From assembly GCA_963835575.1 (NCBI GenBank), contig CAWIGG010000004.1, positions 96,001 through 160,000 of the forward strand: a stretch of 64,000 nt of DNA, given 5' to 3'. The translations under genes and the position numbers were made by a program. The DNA is from an uncultured Spirochaetota bacterium. Lineage in GTDB: Bacteria; Spirochaetota; Brevinematia; Brevinematales; JAOACQ01. Shown here piece after piece: positions 49,501 through 62,866 of the stretch; position 1 is the first letter of the stretch, and each line of letters opens with the position of its first letter. Under the pieces are notes generated by a model. That model worked only from the letters and a program-made list of their open reading frames with translations, was not told the origin of the DNA and made no database searches.

Positions 49501-49717
49501 TTTAATAATAATCCACTATCCTTAATATTCCGAATCGTTATTATGGGGAGATATGAGTAGAAAAAGAACATTGCTTCTCCGCAAAAAGGTTGCCGGTTTT
49601 TTCCCGGCAAAAAAAAGATACTGCCATGTTCTCGTATTTTGCCGTGTCTTATTTGCAATTTTAGAGTAAATATTTTACACTTGAAACAGCCGTACTGATT
49701 CGCTCTAAAATAACAAT

Positions 49718-50152
49718 ATGCCTTCCAGGCAGAAATTGGTAAAAGAAAAGATGCCGCATAAAAAATTTATCAGTAAAGTATACAAAACCACTCGCAGTTT
49801 TTTCAAGGTATATTTTAAAAAAATTGTCCTTCTCATTACTTTTATTGCTTTCATTTCGATTTCCGTATTTTCACATCACACTCACCATGATGAGGATCTT
49901 CAAATAAAGAATTACACCGCCCATTGTCTTAAAGTGCAAAGCGCGTCTCTTCAAGACAAAGATGGGGATTTTTGTATCGCCTGTTTCTGGCAGAGCATTG
50001 CCCAATCGACTGGCATTTTCGACAAGATCGTATTACCCTATGAAAACCCTGTTCAGAATATTTTCAAACCTTCACTAAAATTCCATTCTGAAAAAATTAT
50101 TCTATCATTCCAGAACAGGGCCCCTCCGGCCCGGGTTTCCGCCGGCTGTTAA
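49718..50152 (+). CDS. DUF2946/CruR-like leader protein, putative metal-responsive ribosome-arrest peptide
   Basis: TM segment, SHHTHH, CIAC, C-terminal QNRAPP; start could be 49751. Confidence 0.7.
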   Translation: MPSRQKLVKEKMPHKKFISKVYKTTRSFFKVYFKKIVLLITFIAFISISVFSHHTHHDEDLQIKNYTAHCLKVQSASLQDKDGDFCIACFWQSIAQSTGIFDKIVLPYENPVQNIFKPSLKFHSEKIILSFQNRAPPARVSAGC

Positions 50153-50347
50153 AAAATCAATGAATATTTCATTTTCCTGCTTCGCTGTCTACAGGTCAGC
50201 TTATTCATGATCTATTAATAGTAGCGGCATAAATTTAAATATGCACTGACTGCTGTTCACTGAATAAAAAGCGGTGAATTGCGCGGGAAAAAGGCCGTTT
50301 TATGAACAGCCTTTCAAACCTAATAAATACTTTGGAGGATTACAACT

Positions 50348-51664
50348 ATGAAAAGAAACAGGATCGTTTTTACAGCCGCCGGCATCTTGATGCTTTCAGT
50401 CCTTTTTACGGGATGCGCGGCGAAAAAGCAGCCGTTCGGGTTTCAAGCCCTCAAGATAAACGGCCGGTTCGTGGATGTTTCCATTTTTAACCAGGAATAC
50501 CAGAGATTTTTCGAAAATAACCGGAGAAACGCCCTGGTAATGCGGACGCCGGATGACGAGCGCAGGGCGGAGGTCCTTGATACTGTCATTGAAAGGGAAA
50601 TCGTTGAAAATTACCTGACCAACCGCAGGGATATAGAAGTCACCGACAAGGAAGTAACGGATTTTCTCAACCGCTATGTCAAGCCGAGCATGTGTATGAA
50701 TATCAATGAGGATGATCCGGTTCTCTTGAGTATTCAGGATGTTGTTGTCAGCCAGCAGACGTTTTCCTCTATAAAATCCTACCTGCTGAGTCTGAAAATC
50801 ATACCTGAAATAGCCGCGAAGTATAATATTAAAGCCGATCCGAAAGAAGTAAAGAAGGAATATAAGCGTCAGTTTAAGGATAATTATCTTGTCTTGGGGA
50901 GGCATATAGTCCTGCCGAAATGGCAGATAAAGCTCTCCGGTGAGCTTGCGGAAAAGATGAAGAAAGAAACAGATATCGGGGACCTTGTCCGGAAATATTC
51001 CATTGATCCTTACTCTAAGAATAAAGGCGGAGCGATGGGAAACATCGCCCTTGCCGCGATAACGCCCGATTTTGCGAAAAAAATGCGGACCGTCAGGCCC
51101 GGGGAAATACTCGGACCTTACCAGGTTTCATACGGAATAGAGATCATCCGGATTGATGATGTTATCCATTTTAATCATCCTGAAAATGAGATAGAAAAAA
51201 CCATTCTGATGAAAAATTTTCATTCTTCACCTGTTTATCAAGACTGGGTTGGATCGCTGAAAGCCGGGGTTAATATAGAAATCACCGACCCGGTTTTAAA
51301 AGCATACTATTTTTTCAAAACCGGAAAATACGCGGAGGCCGCTCCCCTGTTCATTAAATTATATCAGTCCGGGAAATCACGCGATGCGCTGGACCTGGCA
51401 GCGGCCTGCTTTAAAAAAGCCGGCGACGGGGAAGAGCTTGTCCGCTGGAGCGGGGAAGGAATAAGAACGTTTCCCGGGTTCAGTCTGAATTATTATTTGT
51501 CCCAGGCCTCCGGTTTTATGATGCTTCAAAAAACAAATGAATGCCTTCTTGCCATGAAAAACGCGGAGAAAGCGGCCGGCGGACAAATCCTGAAGGAAAT
51601 AGCCGATCAATACTTTGAATTGGGTTTGACCAATGAAGGAAGTAAATATACTAACAGAAGATAA
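50348..51664 (+). CDS. Lipoprotein, SurA/PrsA-like parvulin peptidyl-prolyl isomerase with TPR-like C-terminus
   Basis: FTGC lipobox, RHIV, KYSIDPYSKNKGGAMG, GPYQVSYGIEII. Confidence 0.75.
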   Translation: MKRNRIVFTAAGILMLSVLFTGCAAKKQPFGFQALKINGRFVDVSIFNQEYQRFFENNRRNALVMRTPDDERRAEVLDTVIEREIVENYLTNRRDIEVTDKEVTDFLNRYVKPSMCMNINEDDPVLLSIQDVVVSQQTFSSIKSYLLSLKIIPEIAAKYNIKADPKEVKKEYKRQFKDNYLVLGRHIVLPKWQIKLSGELAEKMKKETDIGDLVRKYSIDPYSKNKGGAMGNIALAAITPDFAKKMRTVRPGEILGPYQVSYGIEIIRIDDVIHFNHPENEIEKTILMKNFHSSPVYQDWVGSLKAGVNIEITDPVLKAYYFFKTGKYAEAAPLFIKLYQSGKSRDALDLAAACFKKAGDGEELVRWSGEGIRTFPGFSLNYYLSQASGFMMLQKTNECLLAMKNAEKAAGGQILKEIADQYFELGLTNEGSKYTNRR

Positions 51665-51758
51665 TATCCGGCTGACTATTAAGCCTTTAGACGATAACTG
51701 TTAATTCAAAGCTTCCGCCGGAAGACAAAGAGAGGGACGGTAAAACAAAGAATTATTT

Positions 51759-51791
51759 GGCAGTTCTAAAAATGTGAGTTTTAGAACTGCC
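51759..51791. repeat. Family C hairpin between convergent genes (possible terminator)
   Basis: GGCAGTTCTAAAA-N7-TTTTAGAACTGCC perfect 13-bp IR. Confidence 0.75.
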
Positions 51792-51957: not shown

Positions 51958-52692
51958 TTAATATACAAACGGTTCCTTCTCTTTAAAATCGGACATAAAA
52001 GGGTTATCAGGCTCTTTGTCCGGAATTATTTTATCCGCCGCGAACATAAAATCTTCCTTGATTTCAGTGTTCGGAGTGTCCGCGATTACCGCATCCTTTT
52101 CCAGATTGTCCGGCTTAAAAGGGACAAAGTGTCCATAAACTTTCACCCAGTCTCCCATCTTATATTGACTGATATCATCCTGTTTTATCCTCAGGCCGTA
52201 AGCGCAGGAATCGTAAAAACAGCAGACCATCACGACCCTCGCGACAACAATATTACTGATTTGATCCAGTTTGCTGTTTCTGTAAATAGAGCCCCTGAAA
52301 ACGTAGTTATTTTTCCGGATGATCCCGTCCAGTTTTTTCGGCGGATTATTATAAAGTATCATAAATAGCTCGCCTAAATTGACCGGAATGTATTCCTTTC
52401 CATTCAAATTTTCCCGGGCGGCCTTTTGTACGGCATGCGATTTGACAGCCGGCGCGATTAGACAAATGATAATAAAAACTATCATCGCCAGGATCGCTGA
52501 AAATTTGACTTCAAACCGCCTGAAAAGCGTTATGACGCCGAAGAGTATCAGGAGCGCTCCGCTTCCGCCGGTCAAGAGCAAAAACTTCGGACTCAGCAAG
52601 CGGCTGTAAAATCCGCTGAAAATCAAAAATAAAATATAACCTCCCAGGACCAGAAAAGAAATGCTGCCGATAATCGATAAAAATTTTTTCAT
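51958..52692 (-). CDS. DUF1980/TIGR03943 (YcgQ-like) putative metal permease partner
   Basis: Three N-terminal TMs, VARVVMVCCFYD, GDWVKVYG; paired with a DUF318 permease. Confidence 0.8.
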   Translation of the reverse strand: MKKFLSIIGSISFLVLGGYILFLIFSGFYSRLLSPKFLLLTGGSGALLILFGVITLFRRFEVKFSAILAMIVFIIICLIAPAVKSHAVQKAARENLNGKEYIPVNLGELFMILYNNPPKKLDGIIRKNNYVFRGSIYRNSKLDQISNIVVARVVMVCCFYDSCAYGLRIKQDDISQYKMGDWVKVYGHFVPFKPDNLEKDAVIADTPNTEIKEDFMFAADKIIPDKEPDNPFMSDFKEKEPFVY

Positions 52693-52696
52693 AATT

Positions 52697-53632
52697 TCAC
52701 CTCAGGATTAAACCCAGTATATTACACACAAAGAAAATAAGGATAAACGGTATAACTGTTATGAGCGCCAGCGCCTTCTTTTTAAAAGTACCGGAATACA
52801 TCAATAGAAGCTTTAAATCCACCACCGGACCGATGGTTACAAAAGCCAGTTGAGAAAACGGCGAAAATTTCATGAAGGAAGCCGCGACAAAAGCGTCCGC
52901 CTCAGAACAGATCGAGAGCAATACCGCCAGGACCATCATAAACAGGATGGAAAGCAATGGATTCAACCCCCAGAGCATGACTACGCTTTTCGGTACAAGC
53001 ACGCTGAAGGTTGAAGCGAGGATCGCGCCCAAAATCAGATATTTCGACATCTCCAGAAATTCCCGGGAAGAATGCCTGATGATCAACAGGATTTTTTCCG
53101 GCCATGTCCGCGCTTCAATGTCCTCACAGAGGCAAAGGCCTTCATGACGCTTATGGCCGTGTTCATGTTCATCTTCTCTATCATGGTCTTTTAGTTTATC
53201 GCTATCCAGAAAGATATTGCCCTGCCCGGAAAGAACAAGACCTACTACTAAAGCTGTCAAGGCCGAAATACCGATCCTGCCCAGGACCATCCAGATATTG
53301 TAGCGGAAAGCGACATAGGTCGCCGCGATGACTATCGGATTGATAACAGGCGCTGAAAACATATAAACTACTGCAAGATAAGACGGCAGACCTTTCTTAA
53401 CCATCTTCTTCGCGATCGGAATAACTCCGCATTCGCAGGTAGGCAGCAAGAACCCCAGAAAGATGCTGATGAATAAGCCGGAAGCCTTCCTCTGAAACAG
53501 TTTTCCCCGGAACAGCTTTTCCGGTAAAAACACCTCTATAACCGATCCCAGTATCGAACCGATCAGCAGAAACGGCAGCGCTTCCAGGACTATAGCGGCT
53601 ACATCAAAAATAAATATATTGAATTTCAACAA
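52697..53632 (-). CDS. DUF318/ArsP (YcgR-like) permease with His-rich loop
   Basis: LEALPFLLIG, LPTCECGVIP, APVINP, HEHGHKRHE, SICSEADAFVA, GPVVDLK; TTG start after GAGG. Confidence 0.9.
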   Translation of the reverse strand: MLKFNIFIFDVAAIVLEALPFLLIGSILGSVIEVFLPEKLFRGKLFQRKASGLFISIFLGFLLPTCECGVIPIAKKMVKKGLPSYLAVVYMFSAPVINPIVIAATYVAFRYNIWMVLGRIGISALTALVVGLVLSGQGNIFLDSDKLKDHDREDEHEHGHKRHEGLCLCEDIEARTWPEKILLIIRHSSREFLEMSKYLILGAILASTFSVLVPKSVVMLWGLNPLLSILFMMVLAVLLSICSEADAFVAASFMKFSPFSQLAFVTIGPVVDLKLLLMYSGTFKKKALALITVIPFILIFFVCNILGLILR

Positions 53633-53797
53633 ATTTAACCTCAACCTGCCAAGGATAAACTCAAAACAATCAGTTTTTAGAATTATCCCGGCTTTTAAAT
53701 TATTTAACTGTTTCAATGAATTTAGCGGCGGCAAATACCGGCGCCCGGATGGCAGTTCCAGTTCCGGAAATACGGATTTCTGGAGCTGACCTCATTT

Positions 53798-54154
53798 TCA
53801 AACAAGCGGAGGCGCCCTCATCTGAAAATCAAAGAAATGTTTTTGAAACTGATAGGACTCTGTAATTTTAATAAAATGCTGACCTGGATTTTCATAACTT
53901 AAAAGGATTTTGTTAAAACCGCCTGTTGAAACAACGATACCGGCCCATAAACAGGCAATACAGATATGATCATCGGCGTCTTCATAAGCGGATGCTGTTT
54001 TTTTAAAAACAGCCGTTTTATTCAAATTGGAACAGCCATAACAATGCTCATGGCAGGTGTGTTCAGAAAAAACTGAAAGGGTTATGAAAGAAAACAACAA
54101 GAACAGGAGAAGGAATTTATTTAAAATAATCTTAACTGGCATATATTTCCTCAT
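53798..54154 (-). CDS. Second DUF2946/CruR-like leader protein, putative ribosome-arrest peptide
   Basis: TM segment, EHTCHEHCYGC, HICIAC, C-terminal QMRAPPLV; paralog of 49718. Confidence 0.72.
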   Translation of the reverse strand: MRKYMPVKIILNKFLLLFLLFSFITLSVFSEHTCHEHCYGCSNLNKTAVFKKTASAYEDADDHICIACLWAGIVVSTGGFNKILLSYENPGQHFIKITESYQFQKHFFDFQMRAPPLV

Positions 54155-54231
54155 TTCCGCTGAACTTAATCCCTAAGGAAAAACCGGCCCGGAAAGCCTT
54201 TGGGTCGTGCAATTACTTCCTATTTAAGACT

Positions 54232-54260
54232 ATTATAATTTTGGGTAATTGGAATGTCAA
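54232..54260 (-). promoter_or_regulatory. Consensus sigma-70 promoter for leader-permease-DUF1980
   Basis: Minus strand TTGACA-N17-TATAAT. Confidence 0.8.
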
Positions 54261-54377
54261 TGATTTAAGAGGAGTTCTAAAAACTTCGGTTTTAGAAATG
54301 TCCTTAAATCAGTATCTCAGTATCTCAGTATCTCCGCGCCTTGCGGTTAAATAATTGCTCATTTCAGGAAAGTTCAA

Positions 54378-54451
54378 AACGCCAATTGTTTGCATTTTAC
54401 TTGACACCAGGGGAATTTTTAAATATAATTATAATGCGATTGATTTGCATT
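54378..54451 (+). promoter_or_regulatory. Consensus sigma-70 promoter with flanking putative Zur/Fur operators
   Basis: TTGACA(54401)-N17-TATAAT(54424); AATGCGATTGATTTGCATT (54433-54451) and AACGCCAATTGTTTGCATT (54378-54396). Confidence 0.7.
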
Positions 54452-54529
54452 TTGATTTAGCATTCTGGAGGGCTTGTTCTATGCTAAACGCGAATGATAG
54501 ACAAACTAAAAATGAAAGAGAAGAGCGAC

Positions 54530-54784
54530 ATGAAAATTAAAAATGCATTGGAACATTTAAATGAATTATTGCCGTTAAAAGAAAGGCAAATACAGCTTGC
54601 TCAACCGTCCAAGGGTATTCATAGAGCAATATTACGATTATTTGTAGAACGGGGACATATTTTGAATAAAAAGGAAATATCCGATATGCTTGGCGGAATT
54701 GATGCCATACAAGTATTAACCCGGCTAAGCGAGGATGATTTAATTGTATTGGATGAAACTACCAATGAACCAATTTTAAATTAA
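54530..54784 (+). pseudogene. Truncated MerB (organomercurial lyase)-like N-terminal fragment
   Basis: LNELLPLKERQ...HRAILRLF...LSEDDLIVLD resembles the winged-helix N-terminus of MerB-like proteins; stops before the expected GAYP/Cys catalytic region. Confidence 0.5.
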
Positions 54785-54803: not shown

Positions 54804-55520
54804 ATGAAATGTATCCTTTATTTCTACGCGGTTATAGTGCCTTTATTGTTAGCAGCTGCGGTCCGCGCTTTTCCTTATTCGTTTAATGCGTATAACGGCA
54901 TGACGGGTAAAGGGGTCGTATCATTCGACCCCACATTGTCTTTTCCCATCTCACCGAAATTCGGCACGGCGGCCGACATTATCGGTTCCTATGGTCTTAC
55001 TCCCAATTTCGACCTCTTTGCGGACGTTGCGGACTTCAATCTTGCGCCGGAAGCGGGTTATGCCTATTCCTGGATTATGCCTCGTTTTGAGTTTTTGCCG
55101 AACAACATTATTGCCTTACAGTTGCAGTTTAATAACACACAGCCTATGAGCTACAACATTATGCCGCAGTACCACCTGTTTTATGAAAATGATTCTATGG
55201 CGTTTGAATTCAATGGTATCGCCACGATTCCCATAAATAATCCGTATTCTTCAACGGCCATAAGCGGAATTATCGCTCCCGTATGGAAGGCTGTTAAAGG
55301 TATTCTTTATCCTTTCATCGAAATTGATCCATCTTACGTTTTTGGTGATAAAGGCGGCTTTCACCTGAATATCGTGCCGGGAGTCTGGCTGGGCATACCG
55401 GATACCCCGCATCAGTTTTGCCTCGCGTTTACCTTGGCAGATGTTACTTCCGGGGCTTTAGGTTTTGGTGTTAATTTTTGGTATTCCATATCGTTTGTAC
55501 CGGATACAACTAACAAATAA
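54804..55520 (+). CDS. Exported protein, probable small outer-membrane beta-barrel
   Basis: Signal peptide, alternating aromatic strands, C-terminal GVNFWYSISF. Confidence 0.6.
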   Translation: MKCILYFYAVIVPLLLAAAVRAFPYSFNAYNGMTGKGVVSFDPTLSFPISPKFGTAADIIGSYGLTPNFDLFADVADFNLAPEAGYAYSWIMPRFEFLPNNIIALQLQFNNTQPMSYNIMPQYHLFYENDSMAFEFNGIATIPINNPYSSTAISGIIAPVWKAVKGILYPFIEIDPSYVFGDKGGFHLNIVPGVWLGIPDTPHQFCLAFTLADVTSGALGFGVNFWYSISFVPDTTNK

Positions 55521-59176: not shown

Positions 59177-59261
59177 TTTACACCTTATTTACAAGTGGTT
59201 ATATCCAGTAAAAAAGGCTTCAATTTGACATATAATGAATTCTTGATTGGAGTATATTGTC

Positions 59262-60294
59262 ATGCGGGCTTATTTTTTAAAAAGGCTTCTGCTCATCATC
59301 CCGACAATGTTCGGCATAACAATAGCGTGCTTTCTGATCATGCAGGCCGTACCCGGCGGGCCTGTCGAACAGGCGATCCAGAAAATGCGGCGCCTCTCGC
59401 AGGGCGAGGGCGGGGCATCGCCCGGCACAGGCACCGTCCAGCAGAATATGACGCAGGAAGAAATAGAGAATATAAAAAAATACTATGGTTTTGATAAACC
59501 CATCCTGGTCCGCTATTTTCTCTGGCTGGGAAAGCTTGTCCGGTTCGACCTCGGCACTTCCTACTCCTATGAAAAGCCGGTTGCGGACGTCATTTTCAGC
59601 CGTCTTCCCATTTCGCTCACTTTCGGCATCACAAGCCTGTTTTTCACATACCTGATCTGCATCCCGCTCGGTGTGAAAAAAGCCCTTTCGCATGGGCTGA
59701 TCTTCGATCAGGTTTCGAGTGTTCTTGTTTTTATAGGCTATTCCATCCCGTCGTTTGTTCTGGGAGTTGTTCTGATCGTCCTTTTCGGAGGCGGCAGCTT
59801 CCTTAATATATTCCCCATCAGCGGCTTTGTGTCCGATAATTTCGAACAGCTTTCCTTTTTCGGCAAGATCGGCGATTATATCTCCCATATGTTCCTGCCT
59901 GTTCTGTGCTACACGGTCGGCAGTTTCGCCACCATCACGCTCCTGATGAAAAATTCCATGATGGAACAGCTCAACCAGGACTATATGCGCACGGCGCTTG
60001 CCAAGGGCCTGTCGTACCGCCAGGCAGTTCTGCGCCACGCCCTGAGGAATTCCCTGATCCCGATCGCCACCAATATCGGCATGATCATCGGCGTGATACT
60101 TTCCGGCTCTTTTTCTGATCGAAACAATCTTTACAATAGACGGCATGGGCCTCCTGGGCTACGAATCGATCATCAACCGCGATTATCCCGTGGCGCTGGG
60201 TTTGATCGTGATATCCAGCCTTCTTGTTCTCGTCGGCAGGATCATTTCCGACTTCTGCCTCGTGCTTGTCGATCCCCGCATCAGGTTTCAATAG
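59262..60294 (+). CDS. oppB: Peptide ABC permease OppB/YejB-like; +1 frameshift in T-run at ~60110-60114
   Basis: LKRLLLIIPTMFG, PGGPVE, DYMRTALAKGL...HALRNSLIP; removing one T restores GSFLIETIFTIDGMG...RDYPV...VDPRIRFQ. Confidence 0.88.
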
Positions 60295-60303
60295 GAGGCG
60301 GAC

Positions 60304-61341
60304 ATGCAGATATCACCGGTCACTCTTAAAAGGCTCCAGAAATTCCAGAAGATGAAGCGGGCTTCCGTTTCATTCTGGATATTGATTGTCCTATTTGTCA
60401 TTTCCCTTTTTGCCGATATTCTTGCCAACGACAAGCCTGTTTTTTTAAGTTATAAAGGAAAGCTTTTTTTCCCTATTTTCACATTTTATTCCGGCGATCA
60501 TTTCGGGTTGAAGACGACAGACGTCCCGAATTACAAAGAGCTCAATAAAAGCGCGGACTTTGAAAAGGGCAGCGGCAATTTTATGGTTTTCCCGCTGATA
60601 CCCTACGGATATAACGAGTCCCTTCTTTCTCTGCCCGGCAATCCCCCGACTCCGCCGACCTGGCAGAACCCGCTGGGGACCGATGACCGCGGGCGGGACA
60701 TCCTGACGCGGCTTCTCTACGGCTTCCGCATCAGCTTCAGCTTCGCGCTTCTCATCACGTTCGCCAGCATGGCGCTCGGCACTTTCATCGGGGCGATCCA
60801 GGGATTTTTCGGCGGGGCTTTCGATATCACAATGCAGAGGCTGATCGAGATCCTCTCGGCCCTGCCTTTCCTCTACATCGTCATCATCATCGGCAGTTCA
60901 CTGGGGACAAGCTTTGTGATACTCCTGTTCCTCTTTACCATTTTTGACTGGATCGATATCTCTTATTTTATCCGCTCCGAGTTTTATAAACTCCGCGAGG
61001 TCCCTTTTGTTGAGGCATCGCGGTCGCTGGGCGCGAAAAACGCGCAGATCATGTTCGGGCATATCCTGCCCAACGCCCTGACGCCGATCATTACCTTTCT
61101 TCCTTTTTACCTGATCGGGGCGATATTCTCGCTTTCAGCCCTGGATTTCCTAGGATTCGGACTGCCCGCGCCGACGCCGAGCATCGGAGAGCTCCTGCGC
61201 CAGGGCATGTCGAACCTCACAAGCTACTGGCTGTCGCTTTACCCGGCCGCGTTTTTATTTTTCATTCTTCTTCTCATAGCCTTTGTCGGCGAGGGCGTAC
61301 GGGACGCTTTCGACCCGAAGGAATATTATAGGATGGAGTAA
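60304..61341 (+). CDS. oppC: Peptide ABC permease OppC/YejE-like
   Basis: LGTDDRGRDILTRLLYGFR, FVEASRSLGA, HILPN, GEGVRDAFDP. Confidence 0.93.
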   Translation: MQISPVTLKRLQKFQKMKRASVSFWILIVLFVISLFADILANDKPVFLSYKGKLFFPIFTFYSGDHFGLKTTDVPNYKELNKSADFEKGSGNFMVFPLIPYGYNESLLSLPGNPPTPPTWQNPLGTDDRGRDILTRLLYGFRISFSFALLITFASMALGTFIGAIQGFFGGAFDITMQRLIEILSALPFLYIVIIIGSSLGTSFVILLFLFTIFDWIDISYFIRSEFYKLREVPFVEASRSLGAKNAQIMFGHILPNALTPIITFLPFYLIGAIFSLSALDFLGFGLPAPTPSIGELLRQGMSNLTSYWLSLYPAAFLFFILLLIAFVGEGVRDAFDPKEYYRME

Positions 61342-61893: not shown

Positions 61894-62866
61894 ATGGAAA
61901 AAAACATCCTGGAAATACAGGACCTGACGGTCGAATTCGAGCTTGAGAACAGTTCTATCCGCGCCGTCGATGATGTGACGCTTGACATCGGCCCGTCCGA
62001 AGTGCTCGGTTTGGTCGGCGAATCCGGCTGCGGAAAAAGCACAACCGCTTTGTCAATTTTAAGGCTTATTCCATCGCCTCCCGGCAGAATTTCCGGCGGC
62101 AGAATACTCTGGAAGAAAAATGACCTCCTGGAACTTCCGATTGACCGGATGCGCGCGGTCCGGGGCCGTGAAATCAGCATGATCTTTCAGGAGCCCCTGT
62201 CCAGCTTTAATCCGGTCCAGAAAATCGGGAAGCAGGTTGAAGAGACTCTCTTGATCCATGAAAATATTGAAAAAGAAAGCACCCGGGACAGGGTCATCAA
62301 GATGTTCGGGCATGCGGGCCTCAAAAACCCGGAGCAGGTTTATGAATCCTATCCCCATGAACTATCCGGCGGCATGCGCCAGCGCGCCATGATCGCCATG
62401 GCCCTGATCCTGCAGACCCGAGCTCCTTATCGCCGACGAGCCGACAACGGCGCTGGATGTCACCATCCAGGCCCAGATCCTGAGCCTTATCAAGGACCTG
62501 CAGGAGGAGAACAGAATGTCGGTCCTTCTGATCACGCATAACCTGGGCATCGTCGCGCAGGTGGCTGACAGGGTGGCCGTGATGTACACGGGAAAGATCA
62601 TTGAGAACTCTCCCGTTTCCGATCTCTTTAAAAATCCCCTGCATCCCTATACGCAGGCGCTCCTGAAATCCGTCCCCAACCCGAACAGGAAGGGAAAACT
62701 GTATGCCATACCCGGAACCATCCCGAACATGGCCGATCTGCCGGGCGGCTGTCCGTTCCATCCCCGGTGTGAATCCGCCATGCCGGTCTGCAGGGAAAAA
62801 TTCCCGGACACAAAAGAAATGGAGAAAGGGCACAGCACGGCCTGCTGGCTTTACCTGGAGAATTGA
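61894..62866 (+). CDS. oppD: Peptide ABC ATPase OppD-like; +1 frameshift at ~62409-62410
   Basis: [16 protein letters not shown]; removing one C restores [19 protein letters not shown] and joins the C-terminal [15 protein letters not shown]. Confidence 0.88.

What the first reader, a model, noticed from the sequence alone, without database searches (positions are those of the whole stretch)
51958..54260. Second paralogous RAPP leader with identical 44-aa spacing heads a DUF318/DUF1980 permease pair
Seen: EHTCHEHCYGC...HICIAC-(44 aa)-RAPPLV, colinear with the first leader (SVFS.HT, CIAC.W, STG.F.KI...YENP, FQ.RAPP) but richer in Cys. It has a consensus promoter with no visible Zur-like box, and an imperfect hairpin (53751-53791) just after its stop. 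The two leader units face each other. Inference: two diverged sensors, perhaps tuned to different metals or redox state, giving translational control alongside the Zur-controlled ABC operon. This combination appears undescribed.
Basis: partly seen in the sequence, partly recalled or inferred. Interest (0 to 1): 0.82.

Follow-up and report, generated by a model that had tools for sequence, protein, structure and literature searches.

The report
Ribosome-stalling leader gating a permease pair
A small gene ending in a known ribosome-stalling motif sits under its own promoter in front of a two-gene permease in a spirochaete and likely works as a metal switch like the copper sensor CruR, apparently standing in for the repressor site that likely controls this permease in a close relative; which metal and which direction are untested.

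Summary
53798-54154(-) encodes a 118-aa protein: predicted export signal, His/Cys cluster, CxxC, exactly 44 residues, RAPP, stop. It has a 12/12 promoter and lies 165-168 nt before a PF03773 (DUF318) + DUF1980 permease pair. All 8 family members found keep the 44-residue spacing; chance gives 0 in 8 shuffled genomes against 3 real copies.

This is the published CruR/CutF (DUF2946-like) architecture (45-residue spacing; CruR 162-nt gap), although PF11162 does not match. The class is known. The coupling to this permease was not found in print and is rare: 2 of 92 other permease loci, on unrelated branches. None of five relatives in the family has the leader; three place the pair in a zinc-ABC operon, one with a clear Fur-family-type box that this promoter lacks.

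CruR-type Rho attenuation (on when metal, probably zinc, is scarce) fits better, but this leader has only a weak C-rich Rho site. Nothing is tested at the bench.

The parts
54232..54260 (-). sigma-70 promoter of the leader-permease unit (TTGACA-17-TATAAT); transcript start inferred near 54225; no full Fur-family-type box
   Evidence: 12 of 12; best box score 4.8, chance level
53798..54154 (-). leader 2 ORF, 118 aa (114 aa if the second ATG at 54142 is used)
   Evidence: homologs; ESM Atlas nearest clusters DUF2946, 0.96
54065..54154 (-). predicted export signal or membrane anchor, residues 1-30, ending S-V-F-S
   Evidence: hydropathy up to 2.8; helix 5-32 in a low-confidence model; no signal-peptide predictor was available, so cleavage is inferred
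54032..54061 (-). His/Cys cluster H32-C34-H35-H37-C38-C41 with a second CxxC 71 residues before RAPP; H32 invariant in the family, second CxxC also in P0002
53951..53962 (-). CxxC (C65-C68, followed by invariant W70), 44 residues before RAPP
53807..53818 (-). RAPP arrest motif (R113-P116), two residues before the stop
   Evidence: arrest by RAPP shown for other peptides in PMC10951233 (passages), not for this one
53794..53829 (-). hairpin enclosing the RAPP codons and the stop codon; a stalled ribosome would melt it
   Evidence: -13 kcal/mol, z -2.68; not conserved as such in the other leaders
53751..53791 (-). imperfect hairpin after the stop, no U tract; candidate polymerase pause site (inferred)
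   Evidence: -18 kcal/mol, z -3.07; single copy in genome
53633..53797 (-). 165-nt structured intergenic region; no Rfam family reaches a meaningful score
   Evidence: z -3.30 for 53600-53860; one match, 22.8 bits against a cut-off of 50
53596..53651 (-). hairpin pairing the permease Shine-Dalgarno (53638-53642) and start with its first codons; also forms in the leaderless ortholog
   Evidence: z -2.67; opening 8.4 here, 9.5 in L005; 35% of 300 background genes reach 8 or more
52697..53632 (-). DUF318/ArsP_1 permease (YcgR/ScfA-like), 310-311 aa, His-rich loop
   Evidence: PF03773 E 5e-54; start from ortholog in L005
51958..52692 (-). DUF1980 partner subunit (YcgQ/ScfB-like), 244 aa
   Evidence: partner present in 22 of 23 spirochaete and 50 of 80 metagenome permease loci
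49718..50152 (+). leader 1, paralog, CxxC-44-RAPP, heading a SurA/PrsA-like rotamase gene (50348-51664); duplicated with that gene on contig C5
   Evidence: dN/dS 0.28 between the two copies
54376..54453 (+). divergent 12/12 promoter (54401-54429) of the ZnuA/B/C-type operon, flanked by two palindromic boxes (54376-54398, 54431-54453); context, not part of the leader unit
   Evidence: two boxes at the same operon in L005; an independent site scoring 19.1 at the znuC promoter of G002

Best explanation
The small gene is a likely CruR-type attenuator: its ribosome would stall at RAPP while metal (most likely zinc) is scarce and so let transcription run on into the permease pair, and would be released when the nascent CxxC binds metal, letting Rho end the transcript in the 165-nt gap. 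Shown directly: the promoter, ORF, motifs, 44-residue spacing, gap, hairpins, downstream genes, a rho gene, and the absence of a repressor box. Inferred by analogy: stalling, metal binding, Rho termination and its direction. Inferred from gene neighbourhood: zinc as the signal and an uptake-side role for the permease pair. The leader appears to have replaced repressor control: the nearest relatives carry the pair without a leader, three of five inside a zinc-ABC operon.
For: Architecture equals CruR/CutF: CxxC 45 residues from RAPP, spacing functionally required, 162-bp gap, first gene of operon (PMC9426467 passages and sections 10, 11); here 44 residues in 8 of 8 family members at 25-64% identity to the query and 165-168 nt. 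ESM Atlas best hits are DUF2946-named clusters at 0.96, 172 of 256 features. RAPP is the rarest kind of motif in proteomes and marks arrest peptides (PMC12992588 sections 13, 15). The paralog pair is under purifying selection, dN/dS 0.28 against 0.21 for the adjacent enzyme. rho is present, 649 bits over a 509 cut-off. No U-tailed terminator on the transcribed strand of the gap. The stall does not open the permease start. Leader 1, its C5 copy and the independent L060 leader have a C-over-G, weakly folded stretch just before RAPP (top 0.3%, 1.4%, 3.1% of 2380 gene ends), the CruR rut signature. Zinc: pair lies directly after znuC-znuB in G001, G002, G003, with a box scoring 19.1 in G002; ZnuA, ZnuB or Fur lie beside it in 8 of 23 spirochaete and 22 of 80 metagenome loci; in this window it is back to back with the ZnuA/AztC-type operon. 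The same layout (12/12 promoter, leader, 232-nt gap, permease, DUF1980) recurs in L060.
Against: Leader 2 itself lacks a clear C-over-G bubble near RAPP (C 12, G 11; 27% of gene ends do as well); that stretch is only weakly folded (weakest 5%), and the one C-rich patch is at the 5' end, 54107-54047. Strong hairpins follow the stop at once and could hinder Rho. Characterised PF03773 relatives are exporters (SO_0444 and SaoE models match below cut-off; Shew_3410 zinc resistance, bioRxiv 10.1101/072470 passage), which would favour the opposite direction. The closest ortholog (G006, 77%) follows PCuAC and SCO copper-chaperone genes, and the two tested leaders sense copper. PF11162 does not match any of 7 aligned members. 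The coupling is absent from all 5 relatives of the family that have the permease and from 90 of 92 loci surveyed. What lies downstream of the five outside homologs is unknown.
Confidence: 0.45

Rival explanations
1. CutF-type translational switch: metal (copper or zinc) bound outside the membrane prolongs the stall, the stalled ribosome refolds the gap, the permease start is exposed, and the pair acts as an exporter.
For: Export signal and a second His/Cys cluster 74-83 residues from the P site, long enough to reach the periplasm; Shine-Dalgarno and start are in a hairpin, z -2.67; known PF03773 proteins export metals or metalloids; weak rut signal in this leader; L027 has only a 40-nt gap.
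Against: The start hairpin is about 150 nt from the stall and local; opening cost moves only 10.1 to 8.1 kcal/mol; the same hairpin forms in the leaderless ortholog and is not unusual among genes; PMC9973294 (passage) holds that stem-loop unfolding is likely limited to short gaps; co-transcription with znuCB in relatives argues against induction by metal excess.
Confidence: 0.2
2. Same attenuator, but the signal is copper, another thiophilic metal or disulfide formation rather than zinc, so the two paralogs may read different cues.
For: CruR responds to Cu far more than Zn (PMC9426467); G006 places the pair after PCuAC-SCO; leader 2 has an extra CxxC that leader 1 lacks; RAPP leaders with Cys pairs also precede thioredoxin/DsbA genes (PMC12992588); leader 1 heads a periplasmic folding catalyst.
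Against: Most informative neighbours of the pair are zinc-type ABC and Fur genes; the core CxxC-W and His32 are the same in both paralogs, and three outside homologs lack the extra CxxC.
Confidence: 0.2
3. The gene is a recently inserted or duplicated small exported metal-binding peptide (or an idle leader) that does not gate the permease; the pair is simply read through from the strong promoter.
For: No relative in the family has it before the permease; three copies in one genome, one next to transposase genes; weak rut signal; palindromic repeats flank the unit.
Against: Exact 44-residue spacing and a terminal R/KAPP in 8 of 8 members makes sense only for a nascent-chain function; RAPP is selected against in ordinary proteins; an unrelated leader occupies the same position in L060; the model is mostly unfolded (pLDDT 47, shallow alignment).
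Confidence: 0.15

Closest known systems
CruR (Bp2923), Bordetella pertussis, DUF2946/PF11162 uORF (PMC9426467: abstract, introduction and start of results, passages, sections 10 and 11; 3 supplements searched)
   Same: Small first gene of an operon; predicted export signal; CxxC about 45 residues before a C-terminal RAPP; long structured gap (162 against 165-168 nt); poorly structured protein; metal-handling genes downstream.
   Different: No PF11162 match; spirochaete host; target is a DUF318/DUF1980 inner-membrane pair, not a TonB receptor; extra His/Cys cluster; weak C-over-G bubble at the 3' end; context points to zinc rather than copper.
CutF, Rhodobacter capsulatus (PMC9973294: passages and first part of discussion; bioRxiv 10.1101/2025.02.05.636593: abstract and outline only)
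   Same: Sec-type signal, Cys motif 45 residues before a Pro-rich stall motif, control in cis of the next gene. Its survey lists 5,334 CutF-like proteins, with Spirochaetota scarce, and proposes non-copper members.
   Different: CutF has CxxxC and opens a stem-loop over the next ribosome-binding site when copper is present; here the gap is long and the modelled stall does not open the start.
RAPP/RGPP arrest-peptide class: ApdA, ApdP and the Streptomyces metal-gene leaders SLIV_16130 and SLIV_18480 (PMC10951233 passages; PMC12992588 abstract, sections 13 and 15, supplements searched in part)
   Same: C-terminal RAPP in a small exported protein upstream of a functionally linked gene.
   Different: DUF318/DUF1980 is not named among the downstream groups in the text read; in the stored part of the uORF list all 21 'permease' rows are RND subunits.
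YcgR-YcgQ / ScfA-ScfB / SMU.746-747 two-gene permease (PMC5584981 passages)
   Same: Linked PF03773-type plus DUF1980-type genes; substrate not demonstrated. Equating ycgR/ycgQ with these two Pfam families is recalled, not from a call.
   Different: No leader peptide or metal control is reported in the passages read; B. subtilis genes are described as under ECF sigma factors.

Membership tests
DUF2946 (PF11162) / CruR family | match to the Pfam profile PF11162 | tested here: not met
   no match at E up to 1 or 10 for the leader, 7 aligned members, or the whole genome
DUF2946 (PF11162) / CruR family | CxxC and C-terminal RAPP, spacing 45 plus or minus 1-2 | tested here: met
   44 residues in 8 of 8 members; RAPP in 7, KAPP in P0006
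DUF2946 (PF11162) / CruR family | N-terminal export signal or membrane segment | tested here: met
   hydropathy and helix, residues 5-30; no dedicated predictor run
DUF2946 (PF11162) / CruR family | remote similarity by language-model features | tested here: met
   top clusters named DUF2946, score 0.96, 172 of 256 features; PF11162 on only 36% and 12% of members, so a lead rather than proof
DUF2946 (PF11162) / CruR family | first gene of an operon of metal-homeostasis genes, long gap | tested here: met
   own promoter, 165-168 nt gap, PF03773 + DUF1980; metal role of the pair is inferred
CruR-type Rho attenuator | C-over-G unstructured rut site spanning leader end and gap | tested here: inconclusive
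   weakly folded but not C-rich in leader 2; clear in leader 1, its C5 copy and L060; rho present
CruR-type Rho attenuator | metal-dependent release of arrest and bicyclomycin-sensitive termination | not testable with these tools
   needs reporter, toeprint and Term-seq work
CutF-type translational switch | stem-loop over the next ribosome-binding site within reach of the stalled ribosome | tested here: not met
   hairpin exists but 150 nt away; opening energy 10.1 free, 8.1 stalled
RAPP arrest peptides | [quoted passage not shown] | not testable with these tools
   motif present; PMC12992588 section 15 notes that RAPP alone is not sufficient
ArsP_1 (DUF318) permease | PF03773 over its cut-off | tested here: met
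   183.9 bits against 32.3
SO_0444 Cu/Zn efflux and SaoE equivalogs | NCBIfam cut-off | tested here: not met
   96 bits against 300; 80 against 325
DUF1980 / TIGR03943 subunit | profile cut-offs | tested here: inconclusive
   DUF1980_C 41.2 against 25.9 met; TIGR03943 55.9 against 88.8 not met

The most novel reading that the evidence does not exclude
A portable zinc-sensing arrest leader has been plugged in front of the YcgR/YcgQ-type permease in place of the Zur-type operator, as it has independently in other lineages, and its extra His/Cys cluster reads metal on the far side of the membrane while the CxxC reads it at the tunnel exit. That would extend nascent-chain metal sensing from copper to zinc, give paralogous leaders with separable specificity determinants in one locus, and identify the unknown substrate of this widespread permease as zinc.
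Probability: 0.25. Interest if true: 0.7.

Novelty: new variant of a known kind. Interest (0 to 1): 0.42.

Why it matters
Only copper has been shown to act through such leaders. A zinc-responsive member would show that nascent-chain sensing can replace a Fur-family repressor, and the paralogs (same core, different His/Cys cluster, different targets) are a ready pair for swap experiments on what sets specificity and direction. The leader plus the znuCB linkage also gives a testable substrate for the DUF318/DUF1980 (YcgR-YcgQ, ScfAB) permease, whose streptococcal homologs matter for fitness in infection and have no demonstrated substrate in the passages read. The interest is tempered: the mechanism class is published, thousands of such leaders are listed, this scan has noted a dozen similar zinc-context leaders, and the host is an uncultured-type spirochaete, so tests must be heterologous.

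Tried and rejected
Pfam and NCBIfam scans of the leader: nothing meaningful. Leader searches in 40 relatives, 400 phylum genomes and 42 class genomes: only weak hits (E 1.6e-5 or worse) in frames of other lengths, not followed up as homologs. Metagenome scan with the leader alignment: 141 candidates, none confirmed. Plasmid tblastn: no match. Rfam: one sub-threshold match. AlphaFold model of the leader: pLDDT 47 on 7 sequences, too poor for a fold search, none run. Sequencing runs: no RNA holder listed; the DNA contigs laid did not cover the leader; neither is evidence on expression. Nitrospirota survey: 2 of 251 genomes had the permease at the threshold, no leader. A loose palindrome search was too permissive and was replaced by a matrix built on four sites; scores of training sites are circular, only the G002 site is independent. 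Intrinsic termination was rejected: no U tract follows the hairpins on the minus strand. A 31-codon ORF in the gap starting 2 nt after the leader's stop was seen and set aside as probably chance; not tested. Screen hits in L046, L055, L066, L099, L103, L119 and L124 were rejected (no export signal, wrong spacing, long ferredoxin-like frames or GC-rich shadow frames). The third rotamase paralog on C2 and two in relatives have no leader. No complex prediction was run, since no binding claim is made.
Full report
OBSERVATION. The minus strand at 53798-54154 encodes 118 residues: a hydrophobic N-terminus, EHTCHEHCYGC, then CIAC, 44 residues, RAPPLV and a stop. It aligns with the first leader at 49718-50152 at 39% over 109 residues, E 3e-26. 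A 12-of-12 sigma-70 promoter lies at 54260-54232, back to back with an equally perfect promoter at 54401-54429 for a ZnuA/AztC, ABC-3, ATPase operon that ends against a Fur-family gene. Downstream are a PF03773 permease and a DUF1980 protein. The permease ortholog in L005 starts at TTG-AAA-TTC after a GAGG site, which puts the start here at 53629 or 53632 and the gap at 165-168 nt. The host is a spirochaete: the window has a FlaA gene and the two closest permease hits are labelled Spirochaetota and Brevinematales MAGs.

IS IT MORE THAN CHANCE. The full pattern occurs 3 times in the genome's six frames (the two window leaders and a copy on contig C5) and 0 times in each of 8 shuffled genomes. 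The C5 copy is part of a 2-kb duplication of leader 1 and its rotamase gene, 84% identical; dN/dS between the leader copies is 0.28, close to 0.21 for the enzyme, so the family is read as protein. Searches of 5.8 billion and 1.84 billion proteins gave five outside homologs (P0002, P0004, P0005, P0006/P0007, P0009). All 8 members have exactly 44 residues between CxxC and RAPP (KAPP in P0006) although identity to leader 2 falls to 25%. S27, H32, C65, C68, W70 and APP are invariant among the 7 aligned. The second CxxC, 71 residues up, is shared only with P0002 (P0006 has one at 77).

WHAT IT IS. Pfam finds nothing, and PF11162 does not ring anywhere in the genome, but the nearest ESM Atlas clusters are named DUF2946 (0.96; PF11162 on 36% and 12% of members). 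The layout is that of CruR, where CxxC and RAPP are 45 residues apart, the spacing is required, and the gap to the next gene is 162 bp (PMC9426467), and of CutF, also 45 residues (PMC9973294). RAPP arrests ribosomes with RAP in the P site (PMC10951233) and small exported RAPP proteins precede many metal genes (PMC12992588). So it works like a CruR/CutF leader; membership of DUF2946 by profile was tested and not met.

IS THE COUPLING CONSERVED. Mostly not. The permease is in 23 of 400 other phylum genomes, including 4 of 4 congeners and G006. I screened 107 permease loci; 94 had at least 450 nt upstream. Removing the window's own locus and two duplicates (L005 = L022, L006 = L023) and adding L138 leaves 92, of which 2 have a leader: L060, a metagenome contig with a 12-of-12 promoter, an 86-aa HHH...CLIC-44-RAPP ORF, a 232-nt gap, permease and DUF1980, and L027 from spirochaete G111, 111 aa, CPLC-43-KDPP, 40-nt gap, a weaker case because KDPP is not a tested arrest motif. 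On a tree of 40 permeases (chosen from the loci held; near-identical rows, partial genes and most lower-ranked metagenome loci were left out) the three leader-bearing genes do not form a clade (p-AU 4e-56), and this genome's gene sits in a fully supported group of six whose other five members have no leader. Repeated gain is the simplest reading; repeated loss is not excluded. In G001, G002 and G003 the pair directly follows znuC-znuB (with a fur gene between in G002), in G004 it stands alone, and in G006 it follows PCuAC and SCO genes beside the same divergent zinc operon. ZnuA, ZnuB or Fur lie within the fetched flanks in 8 of 23 spirochaete and 22 of 80 metagenome loci.

THE BOX. Two palindromes (consensus about ATGCAAnTnAnTTGCAT) flank the ABC-operon promoter here and in L005. 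A matrix from these four sites finds a site of 19.1 just after the -10 of the znuC operon of G002 (0.0001 expected), a weak one in G003 (8.3), none in G001 or G004, and none at the leader-2 promoter (4.8, chance). Calling it a Zur box is an inference from its position; the genome has four Fur-family genes. So in at least one congener the permease pair is likely under the repressor, while here it has a boxless promoter and a leader.

HOW IT MOST LIKELY WORKS. Blocking the bases a stalled ribosome would cover changes the cost of opening the permease start only from 10.1 to 8.1 kcal/mol; the same start hairpin forms in the leaderless ortholog, and 35% of 300 background genes are as closed. Direct unmasking as in CutF is therefore unlikely. 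No U-tailed terminator lies on the transcribed strand and rho is present. I therefore commit to CruR-type attenuation: stall when metal is scarce, read-through; metal bound at the CxxC just outside the tunnel (47-50 residues from the P site), release, Rho termination near the pause hairpin. This direction fits co-transcription with zinc uptake genes in relatives. The weak point is the Rho site: leader 1, its C5 copy and L060 show a clear C-over-G stretch running over RAPP into the gap, whereas leader 2 does not and has only a 5' C-rich patch. Known PF03773 proteins are exporters and the closest ortholog has copper-chaperone neighbours, so direction and metal stay open. I put about 0.8 on a functional arrest leader acting in cis, and 0.45 on the whole chain with Rho and zinc.

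NOVELTY. Seven literature searches found no paper joining such a leader to DUF318/DUF1980 or showing a zinc-sensing RAPP leader. Limits: the library holds open-access papers only; in PMC9426467 three supplements had no hit; in PMC9973294 only 8,054 characters of supplements were held, so its neighbour table was not seen; in PMC12992588 the uORF list was cut when stored, four files were too large, and figures are not held. The pairing could be listed there. Earlier notes of this scan hold 13 findings in at least 12 genomes with RAPP leaders before metal permeases, two of them involving DUF318-type genes; these are unchecked leads, but they suggest the theme is common.

Noticed in passing
L001 6531-8437 (G000:C5:250530-252436): Third leader plus rotamase gene, a duplicate of window 49647-51675 at 84% identity, next to transposase and AAA-ATPase genes; its promoter region has a TTGCA-N7-TGCAA palindrome (matrix 7.8, 0.04 expected) that has decayed in the window copy. 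A ZIP-like and a cation-diffusion-like ORF lie about 7 kb on (named by eye, not scanned).
   Followed up: partly
window 49718-51664: Leader 1 heads a SurA/PrsA-like rotamase with TPR tail, an unusual target for a metal leader; it has a strong C-over-G stretch over RAPP and the gap, so it fits the Rho model better than leader 2. The third rotamase paralog (C2:260680) has no leader.
   Followed up: partly
window 51759-51791 and 54272-54304; degenerate copy near 53660-53690: Genome-wide palindromic repeat (TTCTAAAA...TTTTAGAA core, 19 exact-core copies) between the convergent units, between the divergent promoters and, by eye, inside the leader-permease gap.
   Followed up: partly
window 54494-54784 and 54804-55520: Two genes without Pfam or NCBIfam family head the zinc-type ABC operon; the 238-aa one looks like an exported beta-rich (porin-like) protein and is present, split in two frames, in L005.
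   Followed up: no
L005 3222-4829 (G006): Fur-family gene, PCuAC and a SCO gene interrupted by a stop sit between the zinc operon and the permease pair, where this window has the leader.
   Followed up: partly
window 53765-53795 onward (minus strand, ATG at 53795): A 31-codon ORF begins 2 nt after the leader's stop and spans the two hairpins.
   Followed up: no
window 59247-60329 and 61894-62866: Peptide-ABC permease and ATPase genes appear frameshifted (reading frames shift near 60120 and 62500).
   Followed up: no
window 54310-54335: Short tandem repeat CAGTATCT x3 between the two divergent promoters.
   Followed up: no
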